Shown piece by piece: positions 22,867 through 42,109 of a stretch of 64,000 nt of DNA. A program made the position numbers and the translations under genes. Location of the stretch: the sequence record PV806337.1. One strand, 5' to 3'. How positions within the stretch are numbered: position 1 is the first letter of the stretch; each line of letters begins with the position of its first letter. Origin of the DNA: a phage. The notes under the pieces were generated by a model. It was given only the letters and a program-made list of their open reading frames with translations. It searched no databases and had not been told where the DNA came from.

Positions 22867-25197
22867 ATGAGCCATCGCATTGAAAAAGTAATTAAACGTG
22901 ACGGTACTGTAGAAGACTTTGCTCCTGAAAAAATCAATGGTTGGGCAGAGTATGGTTGCAAAACAGTTGATGTAAGCTGGTCAGCCATTACTATGGCTGC
23001 TCAAAAAACTCTGCCTAAAGGGGTTGTAGATTCCGACACTCTGATGGATGCATTAATTAAAGCTGCTGAAAGTCTTATTAAAGATAATCCAGCATACGAT
23101 GTGCCAGCAAAGGAATTACGTCTTGCGCAAATGCGTAAACGCCTTTATGACTCTTTCGAACCACCTTCTTTACGCTTCTTCCATGACCACATGGTTAGCG
23201 TAGGTGCATGGGAAGACATGAGTGCATGGATTACCGATGAGCAATTTGAAGCTCTGAATCAGGTTATCGACCATGATCGTGACCGTCTTTTTACTAGTGG
23301 TGGGCTGAAGCAGTTCTTTGATAAGTATTCCCGTCGTAATATAGCCACTGGTGAAATTTATGAAACCCCGCAATTCGCCTACATGGGTATGGCAATGGCG
23401 ATGTTATCTCAACCTAACTGGACAATTCTAGATGCAATCGACCTCTACAACGCAATGTCGCTCCACAAAATCAACGTTCCTACGCCGCCACTGGTTGGTC
23501 TGCGCTCTAGTGACCGTGGATTTGCTAGTTGCTGTCTCGTGGATTCCACTGACACGTTGGATTCAATCGACACCGCCGAGCACATCGTCTTCAAAATGGT
23601 CGCAGCCAGAGCGGGAATCGGGTATCATCTTGAAAGCCGATCAATTGCTGATCCGGTGCGAAATGGGGCATTCCCGCATTCCGGAAAACTGCCATATTAT
23701 CGACACATTGACCGCTCAGTAAAGGCCAATACTCAGCAAACTCGTGGTGGTTCTGCTACAGTGTCTTATCCATACTTCGACCCTGAAATCATTCAATTGA
23801 TGCAGGTTAAGCAACAACGTGCTACAGATGAGAATAAAATCGATAAGATGGATTATTCTCTGAGCTTTAACAATCTTTTGTTAAAACGTTATCTTAAAAA
23901 CGAAGATATTACGCTAATGTCATACTTCTATGCTCCAGAAGTTCATGAAGCGTTTTATAGTGATGACGAGGCTAAATTTGAAGAAATCTACGTGGCAGCG
24001 GAGAAACGTGTGGCATCTCTTACAAAGATCGACCACGAAGGAAAAACAGTTCCTGCAGCTCCTAAAGTCTCTGCAAAAGAAATCCTAGATACTTGGCTAC
24101 GTATCCGAATGGAAACAGGACGTATGTATGCTCACCACATTGGGGAATCTAATCGTCACGGTAACTTCCTTGATCCGATCCGTATGACAAACCTTTGTGT
24201 TGAAATTACTCAGCCTACACGCCCGTTCCATCACATTACAGAGCTGTACAAGACAAAAGAGCAGCTTGATCAAATGAAGCCGGAGGATATTGGTGAAGTA
24301 TCTCTGTGTAACTTAGGTGGTGTTGTACTTGGACGCATGGAATCTCTGGCTGAGTGGGAAAAAACTTGCTACATCCTTCTGAAGTTTGTTGATACAATTA
24401 TTGAAATTCAGGATTATCCGTTCCCAACTATGGAATATACGGCCAAGAAACGTCGTAATGTCGGTATTGGCCTAATGAACGCAGCAGGTGCAATGGCAGC
24501 AGAAGGTCTGGCTTACGAAGGTATTGAAGCTCGTAACTGGATCCACCGTGAGGCTGAAAAACTGTCTTACTTCCTGCATAAAGCCTCTGTACGCCTGGCT
24601 AAGGAACAGGGTGCATGTGAGTGGTTTGATCGTACTAAACCATCTAAAGGAATTCTGGTAATCGACACGTACAAGAAAACTGTTGATGAGCTGGTATCCG
24701 TAGGTCTAGAAATGGACTGGGAGTCTCTGCGTGCAGATATTCTGAAATATGGTATGCGTAACTCTGTTCTGACTGCTCAGATGCCGGGAGAAAGTTCTTC
24801 TGTTCTGTTAGGTGTTACTAACTCTATCGAACCACCTCGTAAGATTGTATCTATCAAGGGTAGTGCAGTAAATAAAGTAATTGCAATTGCTCCAGGTGCA
24901 ACCGATTGGGAAACGTTAATGAGCTATAAATTGGCTTATGATGTAGATCGTATCGAGTGGATCAAATGGGTAGCAACTATGCAGAAATTCTTCAGCCAGT
25001 CTGTTAGTACTAATATGTACTACGACTACACCAAGTTTGAGAATGAAATTATTCCTGGCCCAGTAGTAGTTCGTGATTTCATGACTGCTGTTAAATACGG
25101 GTGGAAAACTTGGTATTATGCTAACTTCAACACCGCAAATGGTGGTGGTGCTGGAGAAGAAGCAGCTGGTTGTGCATCAGGCGGTTGTACTATTTAA
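22867..25197 (+). CDS. nrdA: ribonucleotide reductase class Ia large subunit
   Basis: N-terminal ATP-cone-like region, C-terminal redox pair GCASGGC; likely start M36 of track ORF with RBS AAAGGAAAG. Confidence 0.9.
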   Translation: MSHRIEKVIKRDGTVEDFAPEKINGWAEYGCKTVDVSWSAITMAAQKTLPKGVVDSDTLMDALIKAAESLIKDNPAYDVPAKELRLAQMRKRLYDSFEPPSLRFFHDHMVSVGAWEDMSAWITDEQFEALNQVIDHDRDRLFTSGGLKQFFDKYSRRNIATGEIYETPQFAYMGMAMAMLSQPNWTILDAIDLYNAMSLHKINVPTPPLVGLRSSDRGFASCCLVDSTDTLDSIDTAEHIVFKMVAARAGIGYHLESRSIADPVRNGAFPHSGKLPYYRHIDRSVKANTQQTRGGSATVSYPYFDPEIIQLMQVKQQRATDENKIDKMDYSLSFNNLLLKRYLKNEDITLMSYFYAPEVHEAFYSDDEAKFEEIYVAAEKRVASLTKIDHEGKTVPAAPKVSAKEILDTWLRIRMETGRMYAHHIGESNRHGNFLDPIRMTNLCVEITQPTRPFHHITELYKTKEQLDQMKPEDIGEVSLCNLGGVVLGRMESLAEWEKTCYILLKFVDTIIEIQDYPFPTMEYTAKKRRNVGIGLMNAAGAMAAEGLAYEGIEARNWIHREAEKLSYFLHKASVRLAKEQGACEWFDRTKPSKGILVIDTYKKTVDELVSVGLEMDWESLRADILKYGMRNSVLTAQMPGESSSVLLGVTNSIEPPRKIVSIKGSAVNKVIAIAPGATDWETLMSYKLAYDVDRIEWIKWVATMQKFFSQSVSTNMYYDYTKFENEIIPGPVVVRDFMTAVKYGWKTWYYANFNTANGGGAGEEAAGCASGGCTI

Positions 25198-25206
25198 TAA
25201 AAACAA

Positions 25207-25233
25207 GGAGATCTTCGGGTCTCCTTTTTCTTT
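25207..25233 (+). terminator. rho-independent terminator after nrdA
   Basis: GGAGAT-CTTCGG-GTCTCC followed by TTTTTCTTTG. Confidence 0.7.
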
Positions 25234-25243
25234 GAAATTTTAC

Positions 25244-25272
25244 TTGCTAATCGCTACCAGATTTGCTATAAT
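25244..25272 (+). promoter_or_regulatory. T5-type promoter for nrdB
   Basis: -35 TTGCTA, 17 bp, -10 TATAAT directly after terminator hairpin. Confidence 0.7.
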
Positions 25273-25303
25273 ATTCCTGAAATAGTGAGAAAGAGGAAAA
25301 TCA

Positions 25304-26449
25304 ATGACTACTTTACTAAACCTGAATTGGGATCATACTAACGCCGACCTTTTCCTGGGAGATTCTCTCGGTATCGCAGATTATGTACGTGTAGCACATC
25401 CAGAACTAGAACGTCTGGCACTTCTGCAGCGCTCTCAATTTTGGACTGAAACTGAAATCAGTCTGGAAGCAGATAAGAAACAATGGCCTAATCTCCCACG
25501 AGAAATTCAGGAAATTACACTCCTGAACTTAGCATGGCAAACTCAAACTGATTCCTTTATCAGTCGTGCCCCTGAAGCAGCTATTATGCCGCTTGTAAGT
25601 CGTCCAGAATTGGAAGGTATGCTCAAACAGTGGAGCTATTTTGAAGACCTGCATAGTCGTGCTTATAGCAATATTATTCGTAATGTGCTGACTGATCCAG
25701 CAGAATTTATTGATTCTGTAACCAAAAACCAAGAAGCATTCGCGCGCATCGCTGATTCTGTTGAACTATTCGATGAACTGTACCAGTTAGGTCAGTATTT
25801 CATCGCAGTACGCGATCATCGTGGCGACAATACATATCCAGAAACTGAGTTCCCTGAAGTTAAACGTGAAACTCAGGCTAAACTATTAGACGCTTACTTT
25901 GCGATCTATGGTCTGGAAGCAATGCAGTTTTACGCATCCTTTGCATGTACCTTTGCATTAGCAGAGAACGATATTCTGCAAGGTATTGCTAAAAATCTGC
26001 AATTAATCGCTAAAGATGAAGCTCTGCACACTCAGATGTCCAAAGCAATCATCCAGATTATGTTTCAGCAATTTGACAAAGATCTGGTAGATGAAGCAGT
26101 GGCTAAAGCACCAGCACAGCTCCTGAAAACTCTGAAAACTGAAATTGAATGGGGTCATTTCATTTTCAAAGGTCGTAGTCTGATTGGCTTGAATGCAGAA
26201 CTTCTAGAAGAATATCTGTATTTTGTGGGACGTAATGCATTTATGCACATCGGTGTAGAATGGCCTAGTCATTTACCAGTAATCACCAAAAACCCTATTC
26301 CGTGGATTATGAACTGGTTGGATACTACTTCTCTACAGCCTGCTCCACAAGAAATCCAGATTGGTGCAGCCTACCGTGTAGGTCAGGTAACTGAGACCTC
26401 TACTGATACTCTGAAAGATCTGGGTAATGAATTTGGAGATTTCTTATGA
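25304..26449 (+). CDS. nrdB: ribonucleotide reductase class Ia small subunit
   Basis: Diiron ligand blocks (EAMQFYASFA, DEALHTQ); own promoter and terminator upstream. Confidence 0.9.
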   Translation: MTTLLNLNWDHTNADLFLGDSLGIADYVRVAHPELERLALLQRSQFWTETEISLEADKKQWPNLPREIQEITLLNLAWQTQTDSFISRAPEAAIMPLVSRPELEGMLKQWSYFEDLHSRAYSNIIRNVLTDPAEFIDSVTKNQEAFARIADSVELFDELYQLGQYFIAVRDHRGDNTYPETEFPEVKRETQAKLLDAYFAIYGLEAMQFYASFACTFALAENDILQGIAKNLQLIAKDEALHTQMSKAIIQIMFQQFDKDLVDEAVAKAPAQLLKTLKTEIEWGHFIFKGRSLIGLNAELLEEYLYFVGRNAFMHIGVEWPSHLPVITKNPIPWIMNWLDTTSLQPAPQEIQIGAAYRVGQVTETSTDTLKDLGNEFGDFL

Positions 26450-26979
26450 TTACAGCAATGTATGCAGTTGGGCCGAATGGGGAGTTCGGCCTCCGCGGTA
26501 AACTTCCATGGGGTTCCTTCAAAGAAGAACTAGATGCTTTCTATTCTCAACTGGACGTGTTGAATCCAGATAACATCATCATTGGTGCGGGTACTTATTT
26601 AGCTCTTCCATACGCCGTTAGAGAACGTATGATTGGAGCTTCTGACCTATTTATTCGTGCTGATCGTCCACTGCCAGATGATATTACACATGATATTTAC
26701 ACCCCAATTTCTAAGATTGGGGATGCTTTACCTACATTTCTGAAAGATCAGCAGACAGTAGTTCTAGGTGGTGCTAACCTTCTTCTAGAAATGTATCAAT
26801 ATGGTCATATTGAAAGTGCTTTTGTATCCACAATCTTTAGTAATCAAAAACTAGAGGCAGATGTATATCTGGATAATACGATTCTAGATTACAACTATGA
26901 ATCTACTCGTTTAGTTTACGCAACTGGCGCAAACAGTGATAACAGCCTGCGATTTGTACAGGAATTGGTTACTTATTAA
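26446..26979 (+). CDS. frd: dihydrofolate reductase
   Basis: N-terminal [23 protein letters not shown] signature; overlaps nrdB stop and thyA start. Confidence 0.8.
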
Positions 26980-27833
26980 TGGATCAGTATATAGAAGTTG
27001 GAAAACGTATTCTATCAGAAGGTCAGTGGGTAACGAATCCCAGAACAGGGGTTCGTTGCCTCACCATTATTGATGCAGATTTTACTTTTAACGTAGGTGC
27101 AGGTGAATTCCCACTTATTACTACTCGTAAGGCGTTTGCAAAACAAGCAATAATGGAAATGATTGGGTATCTACGTGGGTATGATTCAGCAGCACAATTC
27201 CGCGCTATTGGTGTTAACACATGGAATGCTAATGCAAATGAAAACTTAGCTTGGCTAGACAATCCATACCGTAAAGGTGAGGATGATATGGGACGAGTCT
27301 ATGGTGTTCAAGGACGTCAGTGGACTAATTCCGATGGTCTTATGTTTGACCAACTAGTCAAGATTTATCATAATCTGAAAAAGGGCATTGATGATCGTGG
27401 GGAAATTCTAACCTTCTGGAATCCGGGGGAGTTCTCAAAGGGTTGCTTACGTCCATGTATGCATACTCATCAGTTCTCTATTTTGGGAGATACATTATAT
27501 CTGAACTCTTTCCAGAGATCTAATGACTTCCTGTTAGGCCAAGTATTTAACATGGTTCAGTGCTATACGCTTCTAGCATTAATGGCACAGATTACAGGCC
27601 TTAAACCAGGAATTGCACGCCAGAAGATTATCAATCTTCATATCTATGAGGATCAGTATAATGTTTTGATGGAGCACAAGCAATTCGATCGTGAACCTTT
27701 TGCACTCCCAACTCTAGAAATTAATCCAAATATTAAGACTTTAGATGACGTATTGACTTGGGTAAGTAAGGATGATTTTACTGTTCAAGGTTATGAACAT
27801 CATCCAGCTATTGCATACCCATTCACTGTTTAA
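26979..27833 (+). CDS. thyA: thymidylate synthase
   Basis: ThyA-like blocks (FWNPGEF, catalytic Cys region [19 protein letters not shown]); adjacent to frd. Confidence 0.8.
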
Positions 27834-27846: not shown

Positions 27847-27876
27847 TTGCTTTAATCCCAGTACTTATAGTATAAT
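27847..27876 (+). promoter_or_regulatory. T5-type promoter for HNH endonuclease gene
   Basis: -35 TTGCTT, 18 bp, -10 TATAAT. Confidence 0.65.
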
Positions 27877-27903
27877 ATCTCCTATATACATTATAGGAGA
27901 TAT
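27875..27903 (+). promoter_or_regulatory. 12-bp perfect inverted repeat occluding the RBS of the HNH gene
   Basis: ATATCTCCTATA-TACAT-TATAGGAGATAT; right arm contains the AGGAG Shine-Dalgarno 5 nt before ATG 27908. Confidence 0.6.
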
Positions 27904-27907
27904 ATTT

Positions 27908-28462
27908 ATGATCGTACAAGAGGGGTGGACAAAAGAATCCGCACGTAATAGGTTTATCTATAATCCTCTTACTGGGGAGATTTTAAATAGAATTAACAGT
28001 GGTAGGGCTAAGAAAGGACAGATAGCCGGGTACCTAGACAAGTCTACTGGATATATTCGGGTAACATTGGCAGGAAAAAGAATGAAAGGACATCAGTTAG
28101 CCTTCTTATACATGGAAGGATATATACCTGATACTATAGATCACATCAACAGAATAAAATCTGATAATAGATGGTGTAATTTAAGGGAATCTTCACCCCA
28201 AGAGAATGCTAGAAATATTAAAGCAAGAAGTAAATCTGGTTATTTAGGGGTTGGGTGGCATAAGCCAAGTCAAAAATGGTGGGTATATACTAAAGATGTA
28301 AAAGGAGCGCAGATTAATGGTGGTTACTTTGATTATACGAAATTAGAGGAAGCAGTCAATAAAGCTAATGAACTCCGTCAGCAATTACATGGACATACTG
28401 CTATTTTAGAAGTTTTTAATCCTGATCAACCAATACCTACCATAGAGGAACTTAATAAATGA
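27908..28462 (+). CDS. HNH homing endonuclease with AP2-like DNA-binding region
   Basis: HNH motif HQLAFLYMEG...IDHINRIKSDNRWCNLRE; AP2-like GYLGVGWHKPSQKWWVY. Confidence 0.75.
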   Translation: MIVQEGWTKESARNRFIYNPLTGEILNRINSGRAKKGQIAGYLDKSTGYIRVTLAGKRMKGHQLAFLYMEGYIPDTIDHINRIKSDNRWCNLRESSPQENARNIKARSKSGYLGVGWHKPSQKWWVYTKDVKGAQINGGYFDYTKLEEAVNKANELRQQLHGHTAILEVFNPDQPIPTIEELNK

Positions 28463-28935
28463 GTGTTTTCCACATTTACACAGATGGTGCTTGTAAGTCT
28501 AACCCAGGTCCAGGTGCTTGGGGATTTATTGTCTATGATGATAACGATGATCGTTTAGGTTCTAAATCTGGATATAGTCCTAAAACTACAAATAATGAGA
28601 TGGAACTCACGGCTATTGTAGAGGCTCTACGTTGGTCAGTTAAAAAAGATAATAGACCAATTGTTATCTATACTGATTCTGCTTATTGCAAAAATGGTAT
28701 GGAAAGTTGGATGTTTTCTTGGCAAAGGAAAGGCTGGAAGAAAGCAGATGGTGAAGTTCCTCTTAATCTAGAACTTTGGCAGGAAGCATTTAAATTAACA
28801 CAGCAGTATATCAACTTTCATAATACTAACCCTACCTTTATTAAGGTTAAAGGACATTCTGGTATTAGTGGTAATGAAGCTGTAGACGCCTTATGTAACA
28901 CAGTTATTACTGAAGCTGAAATGGCTGAGATGTGA
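28459..28935 (+). CDS. rnh: ribonuclease H (RNase HI)
   Basis: HIYTDGACKSNPGPGAWGF, ELTAIVEAL, IYTDSAY, GHSGISGNEAVDAL. Confidence 0.85.
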   Translation: MSVFHIYTDGACKSNPGPGAWGFIVYDDNDDRLGSKSGYSPKTTNNEMELTAIVEALRWSVKKDNRPIVIYTDSAYCKNGMESWMFSWQRKGWKKADGEVPLNLELWQEAFKLTQQYINFHNTNPTFIKVKGHSGISGNEAVDALCNTVITEAEMAEM

Positions 28936-28956: not shown

Positions 28957-28985
28957 TTGCTTAAAGCCCTCTAATTTAGTATAAT
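28957..28985 (+). promoter_or_regulatory. T5-type promoter
   Basis: -35 TTGCTT, 17 bp, -10 TATAAT upstream of 29013. Confidence 0.7.
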
Positions 28986-29012
28986 ATTCGTATTGAAAGT
29001 GAGGAGGGCTTT

Positions 29013-29291
29013 ATGAGAATTTATAACTCAAATTCATTAGGATTTAAACCGTTGAGAAAACGTGCACAATCACCTCGTCAAATAAGAAAGGCTAATATTG
29101 GTGAGCCAGAAACACGTCTTCCACCTCCTCCGGAACAACGTTTAGTTTATCTGGATGAAGAATTAGCTGAACGCGAAAGAAAAGCTCAAGAAGAGATTGA
29201 GCGTAAGAAAATGTGTACTGCTCCAGCATATAATAAAGGAGCGTATCAATATGTTTCCGATGCAGAACAAGCCAAGATGGTTGGTAGATAA
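29013..29291 (+). CDS. hypothetical protein (92 aa)
   Basis: Track ORF with T5-type promoter and RBS GAGGAGGG. Confidence 0.55.
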   Translation: MRIYNSNSLGFKPLRKRAQSPRQIRKANIGEPETRLPPPPEQRLVYLDEELAERERKAQEEIERKKMCTAPAYNKGAYQYVSDAEQAKMVGR

Positions 29292-34845: not shown

Positions 34846-34920
34846 CGGGGTGTAGTCTAAGGGAGAGGCAGGAGTCTTCTAAATTCCTTTATGCAGGTTC
34901 GAATCCTGTCACCTCGGCCA
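34846..34920 (+). tRNA. tRNA-Arg (anticodon TCT)
   Basis: Acceptor CGGGGTG/CACCTCG, anticodon stem GGAGT/ATTCC with loop CTTCTAA, T-arm GCAGG-TTCGAAT-CCTGT, encoded CCA. Confidence 0.8.
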
Positions 34921-34954
34921 ATTTTATTAACTGTAACTAAAACAAAGGAAATAT

Positions 34955-35902
34955 ATGTTTGCTACTAAAAATATGAAAGAACTGACTTCTGAGCAGAAAG
35001 TAATTCGTACTATTAAACGTTGGGGTATTGGTGCTGTAGTTGGTTTAGCAGGTTTAATCCTAGCTTTTAATTCATATACTATTGTTTCTGATGGTACGGT
35101 TAAAACCCAAACATTCCTGGGTAAAGTAGACCCTAATCCAGTATTGCCGGGCTTCCATCTTGTAAACCCGTTTGCATCTTTCGATACTTTTAGTACAAAA
35201 GATATTGCTGTAAAATTAGATAAACTTCAGGTTCCTAGCCAGGATAAGTTTAAATCCACTGTTGACCTGACTGTTATGTTGCAGTTTGATGGTTCTAAAG
35301 CACCGATTAACCGTATTAACGCAGGTACTCAGGATCAGGCACTAGACAAGTATGTAACTGAAAAATTACTGTCTACTATTCGTGAGTTTGGTAAGTCTGT
35401 ACCTAAAGCACAAGATTTATTTGATGCTAAAATTCAGGCTCAATTGCAAACTGCAATTCAACAGGAAGTTGAAGAGTATGCGCGCCCATATGGTTACACA
35501 GTTAAGCAGGTATTCCTTCAGGATATTACCTTGCCGCCAGTAATCATGGAACAGGTACAGAATACCAAAGTTCGTGAAGAGCAAGTTAATGCTGCGAAAG
35601 CTGAACTTGCTCGCGTTGAACAGGAAGCACAGCAAAAAGTTAAACAAGCAGAAGCAGATCGTGAAGCTCGTAACAACCAAGCTATTGCTAATGAACGTGA
35701 CGCAGATGCTAAACTGTACGCAGCTAAGAAAGAAGCTGAAGCTAACGCCGCATTGCAACGTACCATTACTCCTGAAATGATTCGTTGGAAACAACTGGAA
35801 GTTGAAATGATCCGTGCTCAGAAGTATCAAGGTGGTGTACCTCAGACTGTGGTAGGTACTGGCTACGATGGTCAAATGATCATGGATATGCGTAACAAGT
35901 AA
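34955..35902 (+). CDS. SPFH/band-7 (stomatin/prohibitin-like) membrane protein
   Basis: N-terminal TM (WGIGAVVGLAGLILAF), SPFH-like core, long Ala/Glu/Gln coiled coil. Confidence 0.65.
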   Translation: MFATKNMKELTSEQKVIRTIKRWGIGAVVGLAGLILAFNSYTIVSDGTVKTQTFLGKVDPNPVLPGFHLVNPFASFDTFSTKDIAVKLDKLQVPSQDKFKSTVDLTVMLQFDGSKAPINRINAGTQDQALDKYVTEKLLSTIREFGKSVPKAQDLFDAKIQAQLQTAIQQEVEEYARPYGYTVKQVFLQDITLPPVIMEQVQNTKVREEQVNAAKAELARVEQEAQQKVKQAEADREARNNQAIANERDADAKLYAAKKEAEANAALQRTITPEMIRWKQLEVEMIRAQKYQGGVPQTVVGTGYDGQMIMDMRNK

Positions 35903-35925
35903 TAGTTACACGTAATCTTCGAACC

Positions 35926-35960
35926 AAGCCCGCGTTTCCTACGAGAGCGCGGGCTTTTCT
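35926..35960 (+). terminator. rho-independent terminator after SPFH gene
   Basis: AAGCCCGCG ... CGCGGGCTT followed by TTTCTGTATTT. Confidence 0.7.
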
Positions 35961-35970
35961 GTATTTAAGG

Positions 35971-36015
35971 CAAAAGAAAAAGCCCCTTACCTTTCGGCAG
36001 GGGCTTTTGTTTTTG
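35971..36015. terminator. bidirectional terminator between convergent units
   Basis: AGCCCCT-TACCTTTCGGC-AGGGGCT flanked by A-run upstream and T-run downstream. Confidence 0.65.
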
Positions 36016-36221
36016 GTTTAGAACCATACTCTCGGTGTACAGCAACCACCCATACGGGAGGCCAATCTTGACTGAAAATCTACTCTAGGGGGCAGGATAA
36101 GAGTAGGCTTAAAGGCAAAGGGATTGAACGCCGGTATTTGCGTAAACATTGCTGGAGAGCAACAACGTGCTACAGGCACTGGGCAGCACGAAACAGATTT
36201 TCTGCAACACATATTTCCTCC

Positions 36222-36638
36222 TTAGGAGTTACTACCCCCATTTTGAGCTTTTGCAACTTGGCTTTGGCAGAAGCTATTAAACTTACCCATAAGTGATACA
36301 AGCTGTTTCCCATCCTCTGTCTTTGCGAAGTCTTCGAAAAGGGCTAGTACTGCCTGTCCTTCCGCAGAAACCTGCGGTTGTTGGGTTTGTTGCTGAACTT
36401 GCTGCTGAGGCACCTGTTGCTGCATTTGTTGAGGCATTTGCGACTGCCCGCTCATTTGCTGCATCATTTGCATAGGACTCACACTTCCAGGGTTTTGCTG
36501 GAGTTGTTGCTGCATCTGTTGCGCTTCTGCTAAACGCTGTTGCAACTGTTGTAAGTAGGGGTTATCCAGACCCGGAATGGGCTGCTGGGAGCCCATACTT
36601 TGATTAAGTCCGTTATTTACAAAACCATATTTACTCAT
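36222..36638 (-). CDS. Gln-rich low-complexity protein (138 aa)
   Basis: Track ORF; extreme Q/M/P composition (QQMQQQLQQ...). Confidence 0.5.
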   Translation of the reverse strand: MSKYGFVNNGLNQSMGSQQPIPGLDNPYLQQLQQRLAEAQQMQQQLQQNPGSVSPMQMMQQMSGQSQMPQQMQQQVPQQQVQQQTQQPQVSAEGQAVLALFEDFAKTEDGKQLVSLMGKFNSFCQSQVAKAQNGGSNS

Positions 36639-36659
36639 AATGGGCTCCTCCCCTTAATA

Positions 36660-37649
36660 TTAAGCCGGCAGTTTAGCCTGCAGACCAGCCAGAGTCTGAG
36701 TGATAGCACCAAGACTTAAAGCGATTTGATTAATTACCTGACCGTTAGCACCGCTACCCGCAGCGATTGCTTCACGTAGGCGACATGCGTCTAACTCATC
36801 CTGGATACGCGCAGTAGTTACACCAGCGATCGCAGTCTGAAGTTCACAGCAACATTCAGCGATCTGACGTTCCAGAGAGTTCTGGTTAGCACACATCTGA
36901 GCCTGAACAGCGGCAAACTGGTTATTAGTTTGTAAAGTCTGCTGGAAAGCGATCTGTGCAGAATCAAACTTATCTTGTGCACGAGCTATCTGGTTAGCTG
37001 CGAAAGATTGATCAATCTGGCGAGAAAGATCGAACTGACCCTGAATAACGTTGCGAGTTTCCTGGCAGATCTGATTAGACAGATTAGCACCTGTACCGTA
37101 GATCGTAGTTAGTACAGACTGAGTATCACGGCTCTGGTTTTGGGTTGTCTGGCTAAAACCATTGTTAACTGCGCTTAAAACAGCTCCAGTACCCTGGTTA
37201 GCCTCTGTACGAGTAGTGTTGATAGCTGCTAGAATACTAGCGGTATCTTGGTTCTGAAGTACTGCATCAACTGCGGTACCTTCACCAACTACACCACGTC
37301 CACCGAATCCACCGAAACCACCGAATCCGCCGGTTAATAGAGCACCGATTAGGATAGCTCCGAATAGTCCCATACCTTCACCACCGAAAGCACCTGCGTT
37401 TGCTGGGTAACCACCCAGTAGGCCAGGGAAGCCACTAGTGAATACGTTTACTGGTTCTTGCATTTTATGTTTTCCATATTTATGACAATGTTCATCATCG
37501 TCATCTTCTTCTTCATCATCGTGTTCACGATGTTTTTCTTCGTAGGCTCTGACCTTCTCCCACTTTTTCTTATCTGATTCCTCGTGACGGTGCAGTTCTG
37601 CTGCAACGCTAGCGACGGTCTCAGGACTCTTAGCTACTTCTTCTGTCAT
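36660..37649 (-). CDS. membrane protein with His/acidic N-terminus, Gly-rich TM and Q/N/T-rich C-terminus
   Basis: Likely start M21 of track ORF with RBS AGGAGGTG; HREHDDEEEDDDDEH block; GALLTGGFGGFGGFGG; own sigma70-like promoter. Confidence 0.55.
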   Translation of the reverse strand: MTEEVAKSPETVASVAAELHRHEESDKKKWEKVRAYEEKHREHDDEEEDDDDEHCHKYGKHKMQEPVNVFTSGFPGLLGGYPANAGAFGGEGMGLFGAILIGALLTGGFGGFGGFGGRGVVGEGTAVDAVLQNQDTASILAAINTTRTEANQGTGAVLSAVNNGFSQTTQNQSRDTQSVLTTIYGTGANLSNQICQETRNVIQGQFDLSRQIDQSFAANQIARAQDKFDSAQIAFQQTLQTNNQFAAVQAQMCANQNSLERQIAECCCELQTAIAGVTTARIQDELDACRLREAIAAGSGANGQVINQIALSLGAITQTLAGLQAKLPA

Positions 37650-37711
37650 ATTTTGACACCTCCTAGTATATAGAAAATGTGTGTCTCTTTGATCACTCAT
37701 CCATAACATAT

Positions 37712-37740
37712 ACTTTACACTACCCCAGCGAAAATGTCAA
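37712..37740 (-). promoter_or_regulatory. sigma70-like promoter for antisense island gene
   Basis: -35 TTGACA, 17 bp, -10 TAAAGT on minus strand; lacks the T5 early promoter downstream box. Confidence 0.5.
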
Positions 37741-37856
37741 GGGGTCTTTAAAAATTGCCCCCGGATTTTTAGTGGGGTCACAAATTTTGGTCCTCCCCAC
37801 TTATCTGCTACCCTTAAGTGCCCTATGATTTTCCTCTAAAAAGTTAAAAAATTTGA

Positions 37857-37885
37857 TTGCTTGAATGCTAAATTCTCTGTATAAT
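37857..37885 (+). promoter_or_regulatory. T5-type promoter for Toprim gene
   Basis: -35 TTGCTT, 17 bp, -10 TATAAT. Confidence 0.7.
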
Positions 37886-37915
37886 ATATCTATAAATTTG
37901 AGAGAGGAACCAAAT

Positions 37916-38434
37916 ATGAATGTTGATGAGCTAACACAGCACCTCTTATCCAGAGGATTTGATACAGATAAATATCATTGCTGGTTAAGTCCGGAAGGAT
38001 GGCTAACAGTCCCGTTGTATGACTTCTCCGGGATGTTGCGAGGCTATCAGACGTATAATCCTTCTGCTCCAAAAGGTCATGGTAAGTGTCCCTTTGAAGC
38101 TAAATATTTTACTTATTCTACTACCCAGTGTGTATGGGGACTAGAAACTCTCAATGGAGATGAAAAAGTAGTATTGATCGCTGAATCTGTATTTAAGGCA
38201 GTTGCGCTACATAACGCTGGTTATCCAGCCCTGGCAATGTTAGGTTCTTCTCCAGGAAAAGCGTTATTAAAGCAACTGAAATTATTACCTTTTAAATTGG
38301 TAGCTGTCGGAGACAACGATCCTGCGGGTGAAAAATTTGCTAGAAAATTAAACGGCTTTGTTTCTCCCGTAGATGTGGATGAGATGTCTACCGAAAACTT
38401 GAAAAATTTTCTTGCTATGAAGCTAAATTTCTAA
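37916..38434 (+). CDS. Toprim-domain protein (possible RNase M5-like/primase-like nuclease)
   Basis: Toprim Glu (VVLIAESVFKAV) and DxD (AVGDNDPAGEKFARKL); likely start M18 of track ORF. Confidence 0.6.
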   Translation: MNVDELTQHLLSRGFDTDKYHCWLSPEGWLTVPLYDFSGMLRGYQTYNPSAPKGHGKCPFEAKYFTYSTTQCVWGLETLNGDEKVVLIAESVFKAVALHNAGYPALAMLGSSPGKALLKQLKLLPFKLVAVGDNDPAGEKFARKLNGFVSPVDVDEMSTENLKNFLAMKLNF

Positions 38435-38440
38435 TATAAT
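38412..38440 (+). promoter_or_regulatory. T5-type promoter directly upstream of tRNA-Ser
   Basis: -35 TTGCTA, 17 bp, -10 TATAAT; tRNA starts about 16 nt after -10. Confidence 0.65.
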
Positions 38441-38455
38441 ATATCTTATAAATTC

Positions 38456-38544
38456 GGAAGAATAGCATAACGGTATTGCAGCAGATTGCTAATCTGTCGG
38501 TTTGAAATATAGCCTTGTGGGTTCGATTCCCACTTCTTCCGCCA
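38456..38544 (+). tRNA. tRNA-Ser (anticodon GCT), long variable arm
   Basis: Acceptor GGAAGAA/TTCTTCC, anticodon loop TTGCTAA, T-arm GTGGG-TTCGATT-CCCAC, CCA; T5-type promoter directly upstream. Confidence 0.8.
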
Positions 38545-38550
38545 AATTCT

Positions 38551-38628
38551 GGTTCTCAAGCTCATATGGTATGAGCACCCGGCTCATAACCGGAAGGTAC
38601 GTAGGTTCGAATCCTCGGGGAGCCACCA
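38551..38628 (+). tRNA. tRNA with CAT anticodon (Met/fMet/Ile2), non-canonical T-stem
   Basis: Acceptor GGTTCTC/GGGAGCC with G-U pairs; anticodon loop CTCATAA; T-loop TTCGAAT with bulged stem; CCA. Confidence 0.55.
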
Positions 38629-38648
38629 ACTTAATTAGGGGATTACAA

Positions 38649-38837
38649 GTGGAATTATACATAGTTTATGTTGTATTTATTCAAGATAGAGAATACCCGG
38701 ATGAATATAAAAAAGGATATAGGTTAGCCAGAGCTACCTCTGAGGCCCAAGCTATGGATAAAGTGGCAGATTATATGATTATGGTAGAAAACGTATACTA
38801 TATCGACTCCCTTGAAGCCTCAAAAGTAATTGACTAA
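38649..38837 (+). CDS. hypothetical small protein (62 aa, GTG start)
   Basis: C-terminal part of track ORF 38502..38837 downstream of two tRNAs; weak. Confidence 0.3.
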   Translation: MELYIVYVVFIQDREYPDEYKKGYRLARATSEAQAMDKVADYMIMVENVYYIDSLEASKVID

Positions 38838-38846
38838 GGAGACTAT

Positions 38847-39032
38847 ATGTCCAAGTTTCAAGAACTCAAGCAAGAGCTAGAAGAATGTGCCTGCCCTGAG
38901 TGTAGGGGAATTGGTGAAAGTTCTGATGCAGAAGCAGGAGATACTTTTTGCAATATCTGGATTTGTTCAAATTGCAACGGTACAGGTATTAATCCTAACT
39001 GCGGTGTTTCCCTAGATATTGAACGAGGATAA
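38847..39032 (+). CDS. small Cys-rich zinc-ribbon-like protein (61 aa)
   Basis: CPECRG...CNIWICSNCNGTG; RBS AAGGAG. Confidence 0.5.
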   Translation: MSKFQELKQELEECACPECRGIGESSDAEAGDTFCNIWICSNCNGTGINPNCGVSLDIERG

Positions 39033-39037
39033 TACCT

Positions 39038-39127
39038 GTGAAACTAAAAGATTATTATATTGGTTGGTTTGTGGGACTAGTAGTAGGATTTTCACTAGGC
39101 TATAATATGTATCAACTAATAAACTGA
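39038..39127 (+). CDS. possible hydrophobic micro-peptide (29 aa, GTG start)
   Basis: VKLKDYYIGWFVGLVVGFSLGYNMYQLIN; speculative. Confidence 0.2.
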   Translation: MKLKDYYIGWFVGLVVGFSLGYNMYQLIN

Positions 39128-39133
39128 TTACAT

Positions 39134-39210
39134 GGGGGTGTAATCGAATTGGCATAGGTACTGGACTTAAAATTCAGGTTTTGTGGGTTCGAATCCCACC
39201 ACCCCTACCA
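39134..39210 (+). tRNA. tRNA, probable anticodon TAA (Leu), short variable arm
   Basis: Acceptor GGGGGTG/CACCCCT, anticodon stem CTGGA/TTCAG with loop CTTAAAA, T-arm GTGGG-TTCGAAT-CCCAC, CCA. Confidence 0.6.
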
Positions 39211-39225
39211 ACTTAAGGAAATAAG

Positions 39226-39393
39226 ATGTATAGACATCCACCTCCGCCAACACGTCGTTCTAGGGAAGTCATCCTTATGGAATTGACTAAAAACTTCAAG
39301 GCAACTCTTGAAGATAGAGATTTAGGCACGGATGAAGACATTGATTTTATTTGTAGACTATTAAAGATGAAACTGGAGAAACAACATGGCTAA
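39226..39393 (+). CDS. hypothetical small protein (55 aa)
   Basis: ATG 11 nt after RBS AAGGAA; stop overlaps next start (ATGGCTAA). Confidence 0.4.
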   Translation: MYRHPPPPTRRSREVILMELTKNFKATLEDRDLGTDEDIDFICRLLKMKLEKQHG

Positions 39394-39592
39394 TCCTGAA
39401 ATTACCGCACAACGTTTCATGCTTAAAGGCATGATTGCTGAAGCAGGTATGACTCAAGAGGTTGCAGACTTTCATAAGCAATTTCTTGATATTATAACTC
39501 TAGCTAAAGAGACTGGAGAAAGAGAACACGGTGCAGCAATTATGGCTATATCTCTTATTAGCCTAGACTTAGCTGAAGAATCTGGAATTTAG
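39386..39592 (+). CDS. hypothetical protein (68 aa)
   Basis: Track ORF. Confidence 0.5.
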   Translation: MANPEITAQRFMLKGMIAEAGMTQEVADFHKQFLDIITLAKETGEREHGAAIMAISLISLDLAEESGI

Positions 39593-39622
39593 CTCCTCCA
39601 AACAGAATTTTTAAAAATGTAC

Positions 39623-39652
39623 TTGCCTTTTGCTTTAAATTTCTGATATAAT
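39623..39652 (+). promoter_or_regulatory. T5-type promoter
   Basis: -35 TTGCCT, 18 bp, -10 TATAAT upstream of 39683. Confidence 0.6.
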
Positions 39653-39682
39653 AGTTATATAAATTGATGAAGGAGTTAACTA

Positions 39683-39958
39683 ATGCAAAATCGTGTTGTA
39701 GCAACTGGTATTGAAAGTGCAATCTGTAAATCCTGGGAAGGCTGGGAAGGTGAGATTGAATGGCTTTATTTCTATGATGTAGAACTTCTACCGGAAGTTA
39801 AAGCTAAATGTGTTGAAGCTGGCATGGCTCCAGATGCAAAAGCTGATATTGATATTTCAATGTCTGAACTTAAAGGTCGTGTAATTACTGTTAGTGATGA
39901 GGGCGAAGAAGTCTTCGAACTTCCATTCTCCTTAACTGTCACTCCTAAGTTCGACTAA
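39683..39958 (+). CDS. hypothetical protein (91 aa)
   Basis: Track ORF with promoter and RBS AAGGAG. Confidence 0.55.
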   Translation: MQNRVVATGIESAICKSWEGWEGEIEWLYFYDVELLPEVKAKCVEAGMAPDAKADIDISMSELKGRVITVSDEGEEVFELPFSLTVTPKFD

Positions 39959-39994
39959 CTAATACAGCATTGGGTAAGTTCTTTAAAATTTGAC

Positions 39995-40023
39995 TTGCTC
40001 AGTGCCTTAAAACTTGGTATAAT
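39995..40023 (+). promoter_or_regulatory. promoter for tRNA sub-cluster (Tyr, Glu, Trp)
   Basis: -35 TTGCTC (overlapping TTGACT), 17 bp, -10 TATAAT. Confidence 0.6.
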
Positions 40024-40039
40024 AGTTATCTAATTTGGA

Positions 40040-40089
40040 AACATATTTAAAAGTGTTTAAACTAGTATTTGAATACTTTTAAATATGTT
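40040..40089 (+). promoter_or_regulatory. 15-bp perfect inverted repeat in tRNA leader
   Basis: AACATATTTAAAAGT ... ACTTTTAAATATGTT separated by 20 nt; right arm ends 3 nt into tRNA-Tyr. Confidence 0.6.
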
Positions 40090-40177
40090 GGATTAGTATC
40101 GTAGAGGTAGCGAAGCAGACTGTAAATCTGCCGACTCGGAAGGGTCTCGGGTGGTTCGACTCCATCATCCAACACCA
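40087..40177 (+). tRNA. tRNA-Tyr (anticodon GTA), long variable arm
   Basis: Acceptor GTTGGAT/ATCCAAC, anticodon stem GCAGA/TCTGC with loop CTGTAAA, T-loop TTCGACT, CCA. Confidence 0.8.
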
Positions 40178-40184
40178 AATTTAA

Positions 40185-40261
40185 GTCCTGTTAGACAAAC
40201 TGGTAAAGTCACTACCCTTTCAAGGTAGGATTTGCGGGTTCGATCCCCGCACAGGACGCCA
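40185..40261 (+). tRNA. tRNA-Glu (anticodon TTC)
   Basis: Acceptor GTCCTGT/ACAGGAC, anticodon stem CTACC/GGTAG with loop CTTTCAA, T-arm GCGGG-TTCGATC-CCCGC, CCA. Confidence 0.8.
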
Positions 40262-40267
40262 TTTTCT

Positions 40268-40346
40268 GCATTCCTAGAGTGTTACTGGACAGCATGTCGG
40301 TCTCCAAAACCGTACGGTCTAGGTTCGAGTCCTAGTAGGTTTGCCA
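40268..40346 (+). tRNA. putative tRNA-Trp (anticodon CCA); acceptor and D stems poorly paired
   Basis: T-arm CTAGG-TTCGAGT-CCTAG then ...G-CCA; anticodon loop CTCCAAA; weak acceptor pairing, possible pseudogene. Confidence 0.45.
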
Positions 40347-40352
40347 AAATTT

Positions 40353-40427
40353 GCACCTTTAGCTGAGATGGATTAGCGCTTGCCTGAAGAGCTTGAGAGG
40401 TTGGATCGTTACCAACGGGGTGCTCCA
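40353..40427 (+). tRNA. tRNA-like, possibly Phe (anticodon GAA), non-canonical T-loop
   Basis: Acceptor GCACCTT/GGGGTGC, D-arm GCTG...TAGC, anticodon loop CTGAAGA with mismatched stem, T-arm GTTGG-ATCGTTA-CCAAC, CCA. Confidence 0.45.
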
Positions 40428-40444
40428 AATTGAAGGAGCTGCTG

Positions 40445-40717
40445 ATGCATCCTGAAAACTTCTTTATTTACTGCGCTGATAAGTCGCTGAAACGTAGAAT
40501 TAACAAAGTCTATCATTATAGTGCTAGTCAACAGCCTTATGTATACGCTTTTGACGGTGATCACATTCCACTAGAACAATTATCTTGTGATTACATGATA
40601 TTGAAGAACTTTGATGAGACGAAGATCTCGAGCGTTCACAATCGACAGAATCCATTAACGTGGAAATATAAGAAGAAAAAGAAAGGCATCAAATTCTTAA
40701 AAAATGTAGTTGCTTAG
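40445..40717 (+). CDS. hypothetical protein (90 aa)
   Basis: ATG 40445 with RBS GAAGGAG; track start 40430 is TTG. Confidence 0.5.
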   Translation: MHPENFFIYCADKSLKRRINKVYHYSASQQPYVYAFDGDHIPLEQLSCDYMILKNFDETKISSVHNRQNPLTWKYKKKKKGIKFLKNVVA

Positions 40718-40738
40718 TTTCCAAAAGTTCTGTATAAT
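40710..40738 (+). promoter_or_regulatory. T5-type promoter upstream of tRNA-Cys
   Basis: -35 TTGCTT, 17 bp, -10 TATAAT. Confidence 0.65.
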
Positions 40739-40786
40739 AATTACATAAATTGAACTGGAGAAGCAACATGACAGAACAAGATAAAC

Positions 40787-40862
40787 CGACCGTTGGCTGA
40801 ATGGCTTAGGCGAAGGATTGCAAATCCTTTTTATGTGAGTTCAAATCTCATGCGGTCGTCCA
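40787..40862 (+). tRNA. tRNA-Cys (anticodon GCA)
   Basis: Acceptor CGACCGT/GCGGTCG, anticodon stem AAGGA/TCCTT with loop TTGCAAA, T-loop TTCAAAT, CCA; promoter directly upstream. Confidence 0.8.
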
Positions 40863-40883
40863 AATTACTAAAGGAAAGAAGTA

Positions 40884-41402: not shown

Positions 41403-41456
41403 AGCGGCATCTTGTTAAGTTGAGGGTTGCTGGTTCGAATCCTGCAGGAACCGCCA
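41379..41456 (+). tRNA. tRNA, probable Asn (anticodon GTT)
   Basis: Perfect acceptor GGTTCCT/AGGAACC, D-arm GCTC...GAGC, loop TTGTTAA, T-loop TTCGAAT, CCA; 5' end overlaps CDS 40884-41402. Confidence 0.6.
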
Positions 41457-41558
41457 AATTCTGTGTAGAGTTAAGTAAACCGGTAGCCAACCAGCTATCA
41501 TTGCTGACATCGAATTCAGCCATAGATACCATTTTCGTTAATAACTGAGGAAACAAGC

Positions 41559-41744: not shown

Positions 41745-41753
41745 ATGAATTAT

Positions 41754-41830: not shown

Positions 41831-41847
41831 AATAAGGTAGGTTAGCT

Positions 41848-42006: not shown

Positions 42007-42007
42007 T

Positions 42008-42083: not shown

Positions 42084-42109
42084 AATTAAACTAGCACGAG
42101 AAATATGCT

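What the first reader, a model, noticed from the sequence alone, without database searches (positions are those of the whole stretch)
27847..28462. HNH homing endonuclease with an RBS-sequestering hairpin
A free-standing HNH/AP2-like endonuclease sits between thyA and rnh. Its leader contains a perfect 12-bp inverted repeat whose 3' arm includes the AGGAG Shine-Dalgarno 5 nt from the start codon, and the 5' arm overlaps the -10 element. This looks like built-in translational throttling of a potentially toxic nuclease.
Basis: seen in the sequence. Interest (0 to 1): 0.5.

Follow-up and report, generated by a model that had tools for sequence, protein, structure and literature searches.

The report
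Promoter-split hairpin guarding a phage endonuclease
A T5-like phage carries a mobile HNH endonuclease gene whose ribosome-binding site is buried in a hairpin, but the gene's own promoter probably starts transcription inside that hairpin, so only messages reading in from the upstream genes should be silenced, as already known for phage T4.

Summary
A perfect 12-bp inverted repeat (27875-27886 / 27892-27903, 5-nt loop) contains the AGGAG Shine-Dalgarno of a 184-aa HNH_3 endonuclease ORF (27908-28462) between thyA and rnh of a T5-like phage. It is the longest perfect hairpin in the 64 kb. The SD is the most tightly paired of 83 gene starts.

By homology its start site is about T27883/A27884, inside the 5' arm. 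The anti-SD CUCC would therefore not be transcribed, and the gene's own mRNA cannot form the hairpin (-2.6 versus -15.5 kcal/mol).

The hairpin can form only on transcripts reading through from the nrdB-frd-thyA operon. HNH-carrying genomes lack the thyA terminator that HNH-less relatives and T5 have. This matches the T4 design (I-TevI, segB, mobE, e, soc), here with a sigma-70-type promoter.

Only four leader variants exist. The stem is kept with G.U-compatible changes but no double compensations. No start site has been mapped.

Side result: four other promoter modules in the window show the same promoter-to-ribosome-site complementarity, one with co-variation across phages.

The parts
25205..25226 (+). 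Intrinsic terminator ahead of the nrdB-frd-thyA operon (AAGGAGATCTTCGGGTCTCCTT + TTTCTTT)
25244..25272 (+). Upstream T5-type promoter (TTGCTA-17-TATAAT) driving nrdB-frd-thyA. It is the inferred source of read-through transcripts that carry the whole hairpin.
   Evidence: No convincing + strand terminator lies between here and 27875.
26979..27833 (+). thyA (thymidylate synthase). Its stop codon lies 41 nt before the 5' arm.
   Evidence: Pfam PF00303, E = 1.2e-68
27847..27852 (+). -35 hexamer TTGCTT of the HNH gene's own promoter
   Evidence: Same hexamer as T5 N25. The 18-bp spacer here is 17 bp in EH7 and S.Inf 5-2.
27871..27876 (+). -10 hexamer TATAAT. Its last 2 nt are the first 2 nt of the 5' arm.
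27883..27884 (+). Predicted transcription start (7th or 8th nt after the -10; Y-R step T27883/A27884). Inferred, not mapped.
   Evidence: Homology with N25-type promoters in the window and the published N25 geometry
27875..27886 (+). 5' arm of the hairpin, ATATCTCCTATA. The anti-SD CUCC (27879-27882) sits in the promoter discriminator, upstream of the predicted start.
27887..27891 (+). Loop, TACAT. It varies among relatives: ATAC in EH7, TGTATAT in S.Inf 5-2.
27892..27903 (+). 3' arm, TATAGGAGATAT, containing the Shine-Dalgarno AGGAG (27895-27899), which is 8 nt before the ATG
27861..27874 (+). Outer 5' extension of the helix on read-through RNA. It pairs with 27903-27917 and so also buries the AUG. 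It is less conserved than the core stem.
   Evidence: P(AUG paired) = 0.96. T27865 varies in relatives.
27903..27917 (+). Outer 3' extension of the helix, including the start codon at 27908-27910
27908..28462 (+). HNH endonuclease ORF, 184 aa. The HNH_3 domain is residues 62-102 (nt 28091-28213). The AP2-like region is residues 111-163 (nt 28238-28396).
   Evidence: (phrog_99, E = 2.5e-56)
28459..28935 (+). rnh (RNase H). Its ATG overlaps the HNH stop (ATGA). Its own SD, GAGGAA, lies inside the end of the HNH ORF.

Best explanation
The element is a promoter-split, RBS-sequestering hairpin on a free-standing HNH homing-endonuclease cassette of a T5-like phage.

Two kinds of mRNA are expected to cross the HNH start:
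1. Long transcripts started upstream, chiefly at the nrdB-frd-thyA promoter at 25244. They run through thyA, because this genome lacks the thyA terminator that HNH-less relatives have. They contain both arms. On them a 12-bp core helix, plus an outer extension, buries the SD and the AUG, so the HNH ORF is translationally silent. The hairpin may also terminate a fraction of them.
2. Short transcripts started at the cassette's own N25-type sigma-70 promoter. These begin at about T27883/A27884 inside the 5' arm, lack the CUCC anti-SD, have a 24-25 nt unstructured leader like other T5 early genes, and are translated.

The net effect is that HNH synthesis is uncoupled from the strongly expressed nucleotide-metabolism operon and is set only by its own promoter.

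Shown: the hairpin, its rarity, the promoter homology, the missing terminator, and conservation of the stem.
Inferred: the start site, the existence of read-through RNA, and the translational effect.
For: - Hairpin geometry and energy.
- Rarity: a 12-bp perfect hairpin occurs in 4% of shuffles of the window. The HNH SD is rank 1 of 83 for pairing.
- Promoter identity: about 35 promoters in the window share the form TTGCTT/TTGCTA-17-TATAAT-(6 nt)-ATAAATT...SD...ATG. The distance from the -10 to the ATG is 31 nt for the HNH gene, the same as for N25.
- N25 match: the promoter at (-)12088 fits the published N25 description, which places +1 at the 7th nt after the -10 (PMC12464699).
- T5's GenBank record annotates a promoter in the same thy-rnh intergenic region.
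- Contrast between transcripts: the own-promoter transcript folds at -2.6 kcal/mol. In read-through context the fold is -23.1 kcal/mol, z = -4.2, P(SD paired) = 1.00 and P(AUG paired) = 0.96. All four natural variants show the same contrast.
- Terminator: HNH-less relatives (STyj5-1, T5_ev212, BB1, T5) carry AGCCCTTCGGGGCT after thyA. HNH-carrying genomes do not. No other + strand terminator lies between 25244 and 27875.
- Conservation: the stem is kept at 10-12 bp while the loop and the promoter spacer diverge. The two internal stem substitutions are C->U and A->G, both giving G.U on the sense strand only.
- Same architecture elsewhere: 5 of 27 promoter modules in the window, and 2 of 14 in the Sugarlandvirus Torridgeon, have z < -3 in read-through context only. 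Spacer and SD co-vary in the 48395 module.
- Experimental precedent for this exact design in T4: (PMC2988022, PMC3014915).
Against: - No transcript 5' end has been mapped for this promoter. The start site rests on homology.
- Only four distinct leader variants exist. They show no pair changed on both sides, so covariation statistics are uninformative. The promoter/leader chimera test for the HNH lineages is also uninformative.
- The SD constrains the 3' arm anyway, so part of the conservation has a trivial cause.
- The upstream and local promoters look like the same sigma-70 T5 class. The temporal early-versus-late logic of the T4 cases is therefore not evident.
- The own-promoter leader still has a modest predicted SD-pairing probability (0.42-0.65), although from structures worth only -2.6 kcal/mol.
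Confidence: 0.55

Rival explanations
1. One reading: the hairpin is present in the HNH gene's own mRNA and constitutively throttles translation of a toxic nuclease.
For: The hairpin is stable and covers the SD. Homing endonucleases are commonly kept at low expression.
Against: It needs a start site at or before 27875, that is, inside or upstream of the -10 hexamer of the only good promoter. The upstream TATAGT (27866-27871) would leave only a 13-bp spacer from the -35. N25-type geometry puts +1 at 27883/27884. The resulting RNA cannot form the stem.
Confidence: 0.07
2. The hairpin mainly works as a weak intrinsic terminator or 3'-end stabiliser for the nrdB-frd-thyA transcript. It would replace the GC-rich terminator lost when the cassette entered. 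Transcripts from the embedded promoter escape it because they lack the 5' arm. This is compatible with the best explanation and may act together with it.
For: The terminator scan flags it: 12 pairs, then ATTTATGA. HNH-carrying genomes lack the AGCCCTTCGGGGCT terminator found in HNH-less relatives and in T5.
Against: - Only 3 of 12 pairs are G-C, and the stem base is A-U.
- The U-tract is interrupted (AUAUUUAU; UUUACUUAU in EH7).
- It is unlike the GC-rich terminators of this genome at 25205, 9863, 53341 and 55845.
- The position of the SD exactly within the stem would be left unexplained.
Confidence: 0.15
3. The palindrome works at the DNA level as an operator overlapping -2 to +20 of the promoter. 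It would be bound by a dimeric phage or host protein, or by the endonuclease itself, as in I-TevI autorepression.
For: A perfect 29-bp palindrome is centred a few bp after the start site, a classic operator position. There is a precedent of I-TevI binding an operator over its own promoter.
Against: - The natural variants break DNA symmetry (C->T in one arm, A->G in the other) yet keep RNA pairing on the sense strand as G.U.
- HNH_3/AP2-type enzymes are not known to me to bind as symmetric dimers (my own knowledge).
- No candidate binding protein has been identified.
Confidence: 0.07
4. The hairpin has no selected function. It is a chance or recombination by-product in an AT-rich leader.
For: AT-rich sequence folds easily. 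There is no compensatory double change among the four variants. The outermost pairs are lost in relatives.
Against: - It is the longest perfect hairpin in 64 kb, and 12 bp appears in only 4% of shuffles.
- Landing on one of about 85 SDs makes the joint chance about 0.002 (my estimate from the numbers).
- The stem is kept between lineages with about 88% DNA identity across thyA-rnh, while the adjacent spacer and loop diverge.
- The same architecture recurs at other promoters, with co-variation at one of them.
Confidence: 0.12

Closest known systems
RBS-sequestering hairpins with an embedded promoter at T-even phage homing-endonuclease genes (I-TevI, I-TevII, I-TevIII, segB; mobE of Aeh1)
   Same: The SD lies in a stable stem on transcripts that start upstream. 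A promoter immediately upstream starts transcription so that the 5' strand of the stem is missing and the RBS is free. The regulated gene is a homing endonuclease next to or inside nucleotide-metabolism genes (td, nrdB, nrdD, nrdA). Source: PMC2988022.
   Different: The T4 cases use gp55-dependent late (or middle) promoters and give temporal control. Here the promoter is a sigma-70 N25-type T5 promoter, the anti-SD sits in its discriminator, and no temporal difference from the upstream promoter is evident. Nothing has been tested experimentally here.
T4 genes e (lysozyme), soc and 49: inhibitory TIR structures on early read-through transcripts
   Same: The two-transcript logic is the same. Long RNAs form the inhibitory helix, and RNAs from a promoter inside the 5' strand are well translated. 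For gene e the difference is 100-fold (PMC3014915).
   Different: These are not mobile-element genes, and they use T4 late promoters. The four other promoter-spanning helices found here in the T5-like window resemble them more than they resemble endonuclease-specific control.
HNH_3 (PF13392) free-standing endonucleases of T5-like phages (for example hegH / P-TflVIII of T5) and HNH-AP2 homing endonucleases
   Same: They share the HNH_3 catalytic core with invariant H79, N87/N91 and N100, and an AP2-like C-terminal region. Presence is sporadic at intergenic hot spots among near-identical genomes.
   Different: The 50-55% identical paralogs at this and other loci have no promoter of their own and are translationally coupled to an upstream ORF. 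Only this lineage carries the promoter-plus-hairpin leader.
Phage T5 N25-type early promoters
   Same: -35 TTGCTT, -10 TATAAT, an A/T-rich upstream region, and a 24-25 nt leader with a GA-rich SD.
   Different: The spacer is 18 bp in this window. The discriminator is ATCTCC rather than the ATATT reported for T5 early promoters (PMC7472727). The initial transcribed sequence is (T)ATATACATT rather than ATAAATT.

Membership tests
T4-type promoter-split RBS-sequestering hairpin | The SD and/or AUG lies in a stable helix on transcripts that start upstream | tested here: met
   12-bp stem at -15.5 kcal/mol. In read-through context P(SD paired) = 1.00 and P(AUG paired) = 0.96. Rank 1 of 83 genes.
T4-type promoter-split RBS-sequestering hairpin | A promoter is placed so that transcription starts within or after the 5' strand of the helix | tested here: met
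   By sequence only. The -10 is at 27871-27876 and N25-type geometry gives +1 at 27883/27884, which are arm positions 9-10 of 12. No 5' end has been mapped.
T4-type promoter-split RBS-sequestering hairpin | Upstream transcription reads into the element | tested here: inconclusive
   No terminator-like site on the + strand between the 25244 promoter and 27875, apart from a weak 5-bp stem at 25686. The thyA terminator of HNH-less relatives is absent. Read-through RNA itself was not observable with these tools.
T4-type promoter-split RBS-sequestering hairpin | The embedded promoter belongs to a later temporal class than the upstream ones, giving temporal control | tested here: not met
   Both promoters are sigma-70 T5-type. 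The only hint of a difference is the non-ATATT discriminator. This feature belongs to the T4 examples rather than to the mechanism.
T4-type promoter-split RBS-sequestering hairpin | Long and short transcripts are translated differently | not testable with these tools
   Needs reporter fusions, toeprinting or ribosome profiling.
HNH_3 free-standing homing endonuclease | HNH_3 domain above Pfam's gathering score, with catalytic residues intact | tested here: met
   46.2 bits against a cut-off of 24.8. H79, N87, N91 and N100 are invariant in 10 relatives. phrog_99, E = 2.5e-56.
HNH_3 free-standing homing endonuclease | Sporadic presence at a conserved site among close relatives, with other occupants at the same site | tested here: met
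   12 of 437 matching phage records carry it. Others have one or two small ORFs, a different HNH preceded by a 127-aa ORF, or nothing, as in T5. It is found in both Tequintavirus and Epseptimavirus.
HNH_3 free-standing homing endonuclease | AP2-type DNA-binding domain | tested here: inconclusive
   AP2 scores 15.2 bits against a cut-off of 33.3, but covers profile positions 2-54 of 54. 5 of 10 relatives match, best E = 1.6e-6.
HNH_3 free-standing homing endonuclease | Cleaves or nicks the endonuclease-less allele and is preferentially inherited in mixed infection | not testable with these tools
   Needs cleavage assays and phage crosses.
Intrinsic (Rho-independent) terminator | GC-rich stem directly followed by a U-tract | tested here: inconclusive
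   It passes the permissive scan (12 pairs, 3 G-C, 5 T in 8). However, the stem base is A-U, the U-run is interrupted, and it is unlike this genome's clear terminators.
T5 early promoter (N25-like) | TTGCTT/TTGCTA, 17-bp spacer, TATAAT, ATATT discriminator, ATAAATT start region | tested here: inconclusive
   Both hexamers are perfect. The spacer is 18 bp here and 17 bp in EH7. The discriminator is ATCTC and the start region is TATATAC (ATATT rule from PMC7472727).
Known RNA families (Rfam 15) | Match at or near a family's gathering score | tested here: not met
   Only chance-level matches at 9-18 bits, against cut-offs of 36-285.

The most novel reading that the evidence does not exclude
The HNH hairpin is the most compact example of a genome-wide design in T5-like phages. 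In about 15-20% of early promoter modules, the untranscribed half of the promoter (the region just 5' of the -35, the -35 itself, the spacer, the discriminator) is complementary to the SD/AUG of the gene it drives. Such a gene would be translated only from its own promoter and stay silent on the abundant read-through mRNAs.

Support:
- 5 of 27 modules in this window have z < -3 in read-through context: 45918 (z = -7.1), 48395 (-6.1), 28957 (-3.9), HNH 27847 (-3.6) and 42850 (-3.1). Their own transcripts fold at only 0 to -2.3 kcal/mol.
- 2 of 14 modules do so in the Klebsiella Sugarlandvirus Torridgeon.
- Pairing a promoter with its own gene start (cognate) gives a lower duplex energy than pairing it with other genes' starts: permutation p = 0.013 and 0.007.
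- A perfect complement of 8 nt or more occurs in 7 of 41 modules against 1.67 expected, p = 0.0012.
- Spacer and SD co-evolve in the 48395 module across T5, saus132 and Shivani.

Caveat: a mirror-sequence control was not significant. I found no description of this for T5 in the searchable literature.
Probability: 0.45. Interest if true: 0.6.

Novelty: new member of a known kind. Interest (0 to 1): 0.42.

Why it matters
- It extends a regulatory design established experimentally only in T-even phages to a different phage family and a different promoter type: host sigma-70 with N25-like promoters.
- It shows how a selfish endonuclease cassette can enter a highly expressed nucleotide-metabolism operon, remove its terminator, and still keep its own expression independent of that operon.
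- If the wider pattern holds, T5-like genomes, with dense strong promoters and few terminators, would use promoter-embedded anti-RBS sequences as translational insulators. That matters for interpreting phage RNA-seq and Ribo-seq data. It also matters for genome annotation: one gene caller already mis-started this ORF at an ATG in the hairpin loop. And it matters for engineering with T5 promoters.

Tried and rejected
- Covariation on the HNH hairpin: only four distinct leaders exist (window type, Sen_I1/GEC, EH7, S.Inf 5-2 = L013). There were two one-sided G.U changes and no double change, and the shuffle controls were uninformative. The promoter/leader chimera test was also uninformative.
- Search for more relatives:
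  - IMG/VR gave one locus at 50% identity.
  - The 5.8-billion-protein search gave only one further close cluster (74% identity), whose leader equals that of S.Inf 5-2.
  - Paralogs at 50-55% identity have no leader of their own.
- GE_vB_N5 (MG969412, marked UNVERIFIED) shows deletions in the hairpin and ORF. I set it aside as likely poor sequence.
- No paralog of the HNH gene occurs elsewhere in the window.
- Rfam gave nothing meaningful.
- The PDB sequence search gave no informative relative.
- T5 transcript start-site data: none found in the searchable library. Figure S5 of PMC7472727 is an image and could not be read. The mobE hairpin paper (PMC2655525) is not held.
- Mirror control (promoter against the reversed SD region) for the genome-wide pattern was not significant, p = 0.12-0.27. 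Pyrimidine-rich spacers pair with purine-rich SDs in either orientation. The wider claim therefore rests on the permutation, perfect-match, z-score and co-variation tests.
- Flanking rnh 5' polymorphism as a sign of the cleavage site: the variants do not sort by presence of the HNH gene, so no target site could be inferred.

Full report
**What is there.** The window comes from a T5-like phage (Demerecviridae, Markadamsvirinae). The best matches across thyA-rnh are Salmonella phages GEC_vB_N7/N5/N3 and Escherichia phage ESCO30, at about 97% identity. The local gene order is nrdB (25304-26449), frd (26446-26979), thyA (26979-27833), a 184-aa ORF (27908-28462) and rnh (28459-28935), with Pfam support for each.

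The 184-aa ORF is an HNH_3 endonuclease:
- It scores 46.2 bits against a cut-off of 24.8, and matches phrog_99 at E = 2.5e-56.
- The catalytic residues H79, N87/N91 and N100 are invariant among relatives.
- The C-terminal region matches AP2 below threshold in this protein (15.2 bits), but 5 of 10 relatives match, best E = 1.6e-6.

**The observation.** The inverted repeat is exactly as reported: 27875-27886 against 27892-27903, 12 bp, perfect, with a 5-nt loop.
- The SD AGGAG (27895-27899) lies in the 3' arm. It is 8 nt before the ATG, not 5.
- The 5' arm shares 2 nt with the -10 TATAAT (27871-27876).
- The core hairpin is worth -15.5 kcal/mol.
- On longer RNA an outer extension (27861-27874 with 27903-27917) also pairs the AUG, giving -23.1 kcal/mol, z = -4.2.
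- It is the longest perfect hairpin in the 64 kb. A 12-bp perfect hairpin arises in 4% of dinucleotide shuffles.
- In a -50..+15 context the HNH SD is the most paired of 83 gene starts. The only lower-energy case, at 6778(-), is a genuine terminator with an ATG in its loop.

The window holds about 35 near-identical T5 early promoter modules of the form A-rich upstream region, TTGCTT or TTGCTA, 17 bp, TATAAT, 6 nt, ATAAATT..., GA-rich SD, ATG.
- The module at (-)12088 fits the published description of T5 N25: TTGctt/17/TATAAT, a 6-bp discriminator with G at -5, and a transcribed sequence with no C until +30 (PMC12464699). That fixes +1 at the 7th nt after the -10.
- The HNH promoter (TTGCTT 27847-27852, 18-bp spacer, TATAAT) has the same -10-to-ATG distance as N25, 31 nt. 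Its start is therefore expected at T27883/A27884.
- That start lies inside the 5' arm. The anti-SD CUCC (27879-27882) sits in the discriminator and is not transcribed.
- The resulting mRNA folds at only -2.6 kcal/mol and has an ordinary, accessible leader.

**What the hairpin can act on.**
- HNH-less relatives (STyj5-1, T5_ev212, BB1) and T5 itself have, after thyA, a GC-rich terminator (AGCCCTTCGGGGCT). This is followed by a promoter of the same type, annotated as a promoter in T5's GenBank record. Small ORFs and/or rnh follow.
- All HNH-carrying genomes lack that terminator.
- In the window the operon promoter at 25244, preceded by a terminator at 25205, has no convincing + strand terminator before 27875.
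- Transcripts from 25244 should therefore run into the HNH leader with both arms present. On those RNAs the SD and AUG are buried.
- A ribosome terminating at the thyA stop, 41 nt before the 5' arm, would not reach the stem (inference).
- rnh has its own SD (GAGGAA) inside the end of the HNH ORF. It therefore need not depend on HNH translation.

**Comparative evidence.** Only four leader variants exist: the window type, Sen_I1/GEC_vB_N7 (T27903C, 11-bp stem), EH7, and S.Inf 5-2 (identical to the metagenomic locus L013).
- The stem is kept at 10-12 bp. Hairpin energies are -15.5, -14.0, -10.3 and -8.7 kcal/mol.
- The loop differs (TACAT, ATAC, TGTATAT) and the promoter spacer diverges strongly.
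- The two internal stem changes, C->U and A->G, both give G.U on the sense strand. This favours an RNA-level role over a DNA-level role.
- No pair has changed on both sides, so formal covariation is absent.
- Paralogous HNH genes at 50-55% identity, at this and other loci, have no promoter and are translationally coupled to an upstream ORF. The promoter-plus-hairpin leader is therefore specific to this lineage.
- The cassette occurs in 12 of 437 matching records, in both Tequintavirus and Epseptimavirus. That fits a mobile element.

**Comparison with what is known.** This is the design described for T4 I-TevI/II/III, segB and Aeh1 mobE, and for T4 genes e, soc and 49. An inhibitory helix forms on upstream-initiated RNA, and a promoter inside the 5' strand gives translatable RNA (PMC2988022; PMC3014915). 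The differences are:
- the phage family;
- the promoter class (host sigma-70 N25-type instead of T4 late promoters);
- the position of the anti-SD in the discriminator;
- no evident temporal distinction between the two promoters.

The discriminator here (ATCTC) departs from the ATATT reported for T5 early promoters (PMC7472727). That could matter for timing, but this is speculation.

**Rivals.**
- A weak terminator role is compatible with the best explanation. The missing terminator and the scan hit favour it. The A-U stem base and the broken U-tract argue against it as the main role.
- A DNA operator, as in I-TevI autorepression, is possible. The asymmetric natural variants disfavour it.
- Chance is disfavoured by the rarity, the position, the conservation and the recurrence of the design.

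**Side result that bears on the interpretation.** The HNH hairpin is not unique in this genome.
- Folding each promoter module from 12 nt before the -35 to +9 gives z < -3 for 5 of 27 modules: 45918, 48395, 28957, HNH and 42850. Read-through MFEs are -16.6 to -24.1 kcal/mol, against 0 to -2.3 for the promoter-proximal transcripts.
- 2 of 14 modules in Klebsiella phage Torridgeon (Sugarlandvirus) do the same.
- Duplexes between a promoter and its own gene start are stronger than duplexes with other genes' starts: permutation p = 0.013 and 0.007.
- Perfect complements of 8 nt or more occur in 7 of 41 modules against 1.67 expected, p = 0.0012.
- In the 48395 module the spacer and the SD region differ among the window/T5, saus132 and Shivani, yet each lineage's own combination is the most stable in a chimera matrix.
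- A mirror control was not significant, so I treat the genome-wide claim as suggestive.
- It argues that the hairpin is a general insulation device of T5-like early transcription units rather than a special brake for a toxic nuclease.

**Verdict.** The most likely mechanism is translational silencing of read-through transcripts, with escape by an embedded promoter (confidence about 0.55). This is a new member of a known kind and of moderate interest.

Noticed in passing
window 28957-29015; 45918-45985; 48395-48462; 42850-42915; 53435-53495: Other T5-type promoter modules whose untranscribed promoter part is complementary to the SD/AUG of the gene they drive. Examples: TAAAGCCCTC at 28962-28971 pairs with GAGGGCTTTA at 29004-29013, and AAACCTCTC at 48400-48408 pairs with GAGAGGTTT at 48442-48450. 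Read-through folds reach -16.6 to -24.1 kcal/mol (z down to -7.1), against about 0 to -2.1 for these genes' own transcripts. The 48395 module co-varies across T5, saus132 and Shivani.
   Followed up: partly
window 12031-12088 (- strand): This promoter and leader fit the published description of T5 N25: TTGCTT-17-TATAAT, discriminator AGATTC, then ATAAATTTGAGAGAGGAG, with the first C at +30. I used it as the anchor for start-site inference.
   Followed up: yes
window 28459-28500 and loci L001, L002, L007 (alignment A1): The first ~20 nt of rnh occur in two versions, TGTTTTCCACATTTACACAG and TACATTTCATGTATATACAG. They do not sort by which insert precedes rnh. This may be a mosaic or co-conversion tract next to an endonuclease hot spot.
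   Followed up: no
window 25197-25304 versus L020 (T5 AY543070 49536-50060): T5 carries another HNH gene (hegH, P-TflVIII) between nrdA and nrdB. This window has only a terminator (25205-25226) and a promoter (25244) there. It is a second variable endonuclease site in the same operon region.
   Followed up: no
window 43522-43584: An N25-type promoter is followed at about +9 by a 9-bp hairpin, TGATGAGGA-GAAA-TCCTCATCA. The hairpin contains an SD-like GAGGAG but no ORF start follows. It lies in the tRNA cluster before tRNA-Leu at 43872.
   Followed up: no
window 34846-46726: A cluster of 21 tRNA genes on the + strand, interspersed with N25-type promoters and small ORFs, as expected for a T5-like phage.
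   Followed up: no
L013 1501-1525 (protein P0002, 192 aa): A public gene call starts this HNH ORF at an in-frame ATG inside the hairpin loop (TATATGTATATT), 8 codons upstream of the SD-preceded ATG. This is probably an annotation artefact.
   Followed up: partly
window 6766-6794 (- strand): A strong terminator, AAGGGGAGG-GGGCTATGCT-CCTTCCCCTT followed by TTTT, has an ATG in its loop. My crude gene caller took it for a gene start. It is not an RBS-sequestering structure.
   Followed up: yes
window 27888-27919 (- strand): The loop and arm of the palindrome read TATAAT on the minus strand, 18 bp after a TTGTAC. This forms a weak antisense promoter-like site pointing into thyA. It is probably chance.
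   Followed up: no
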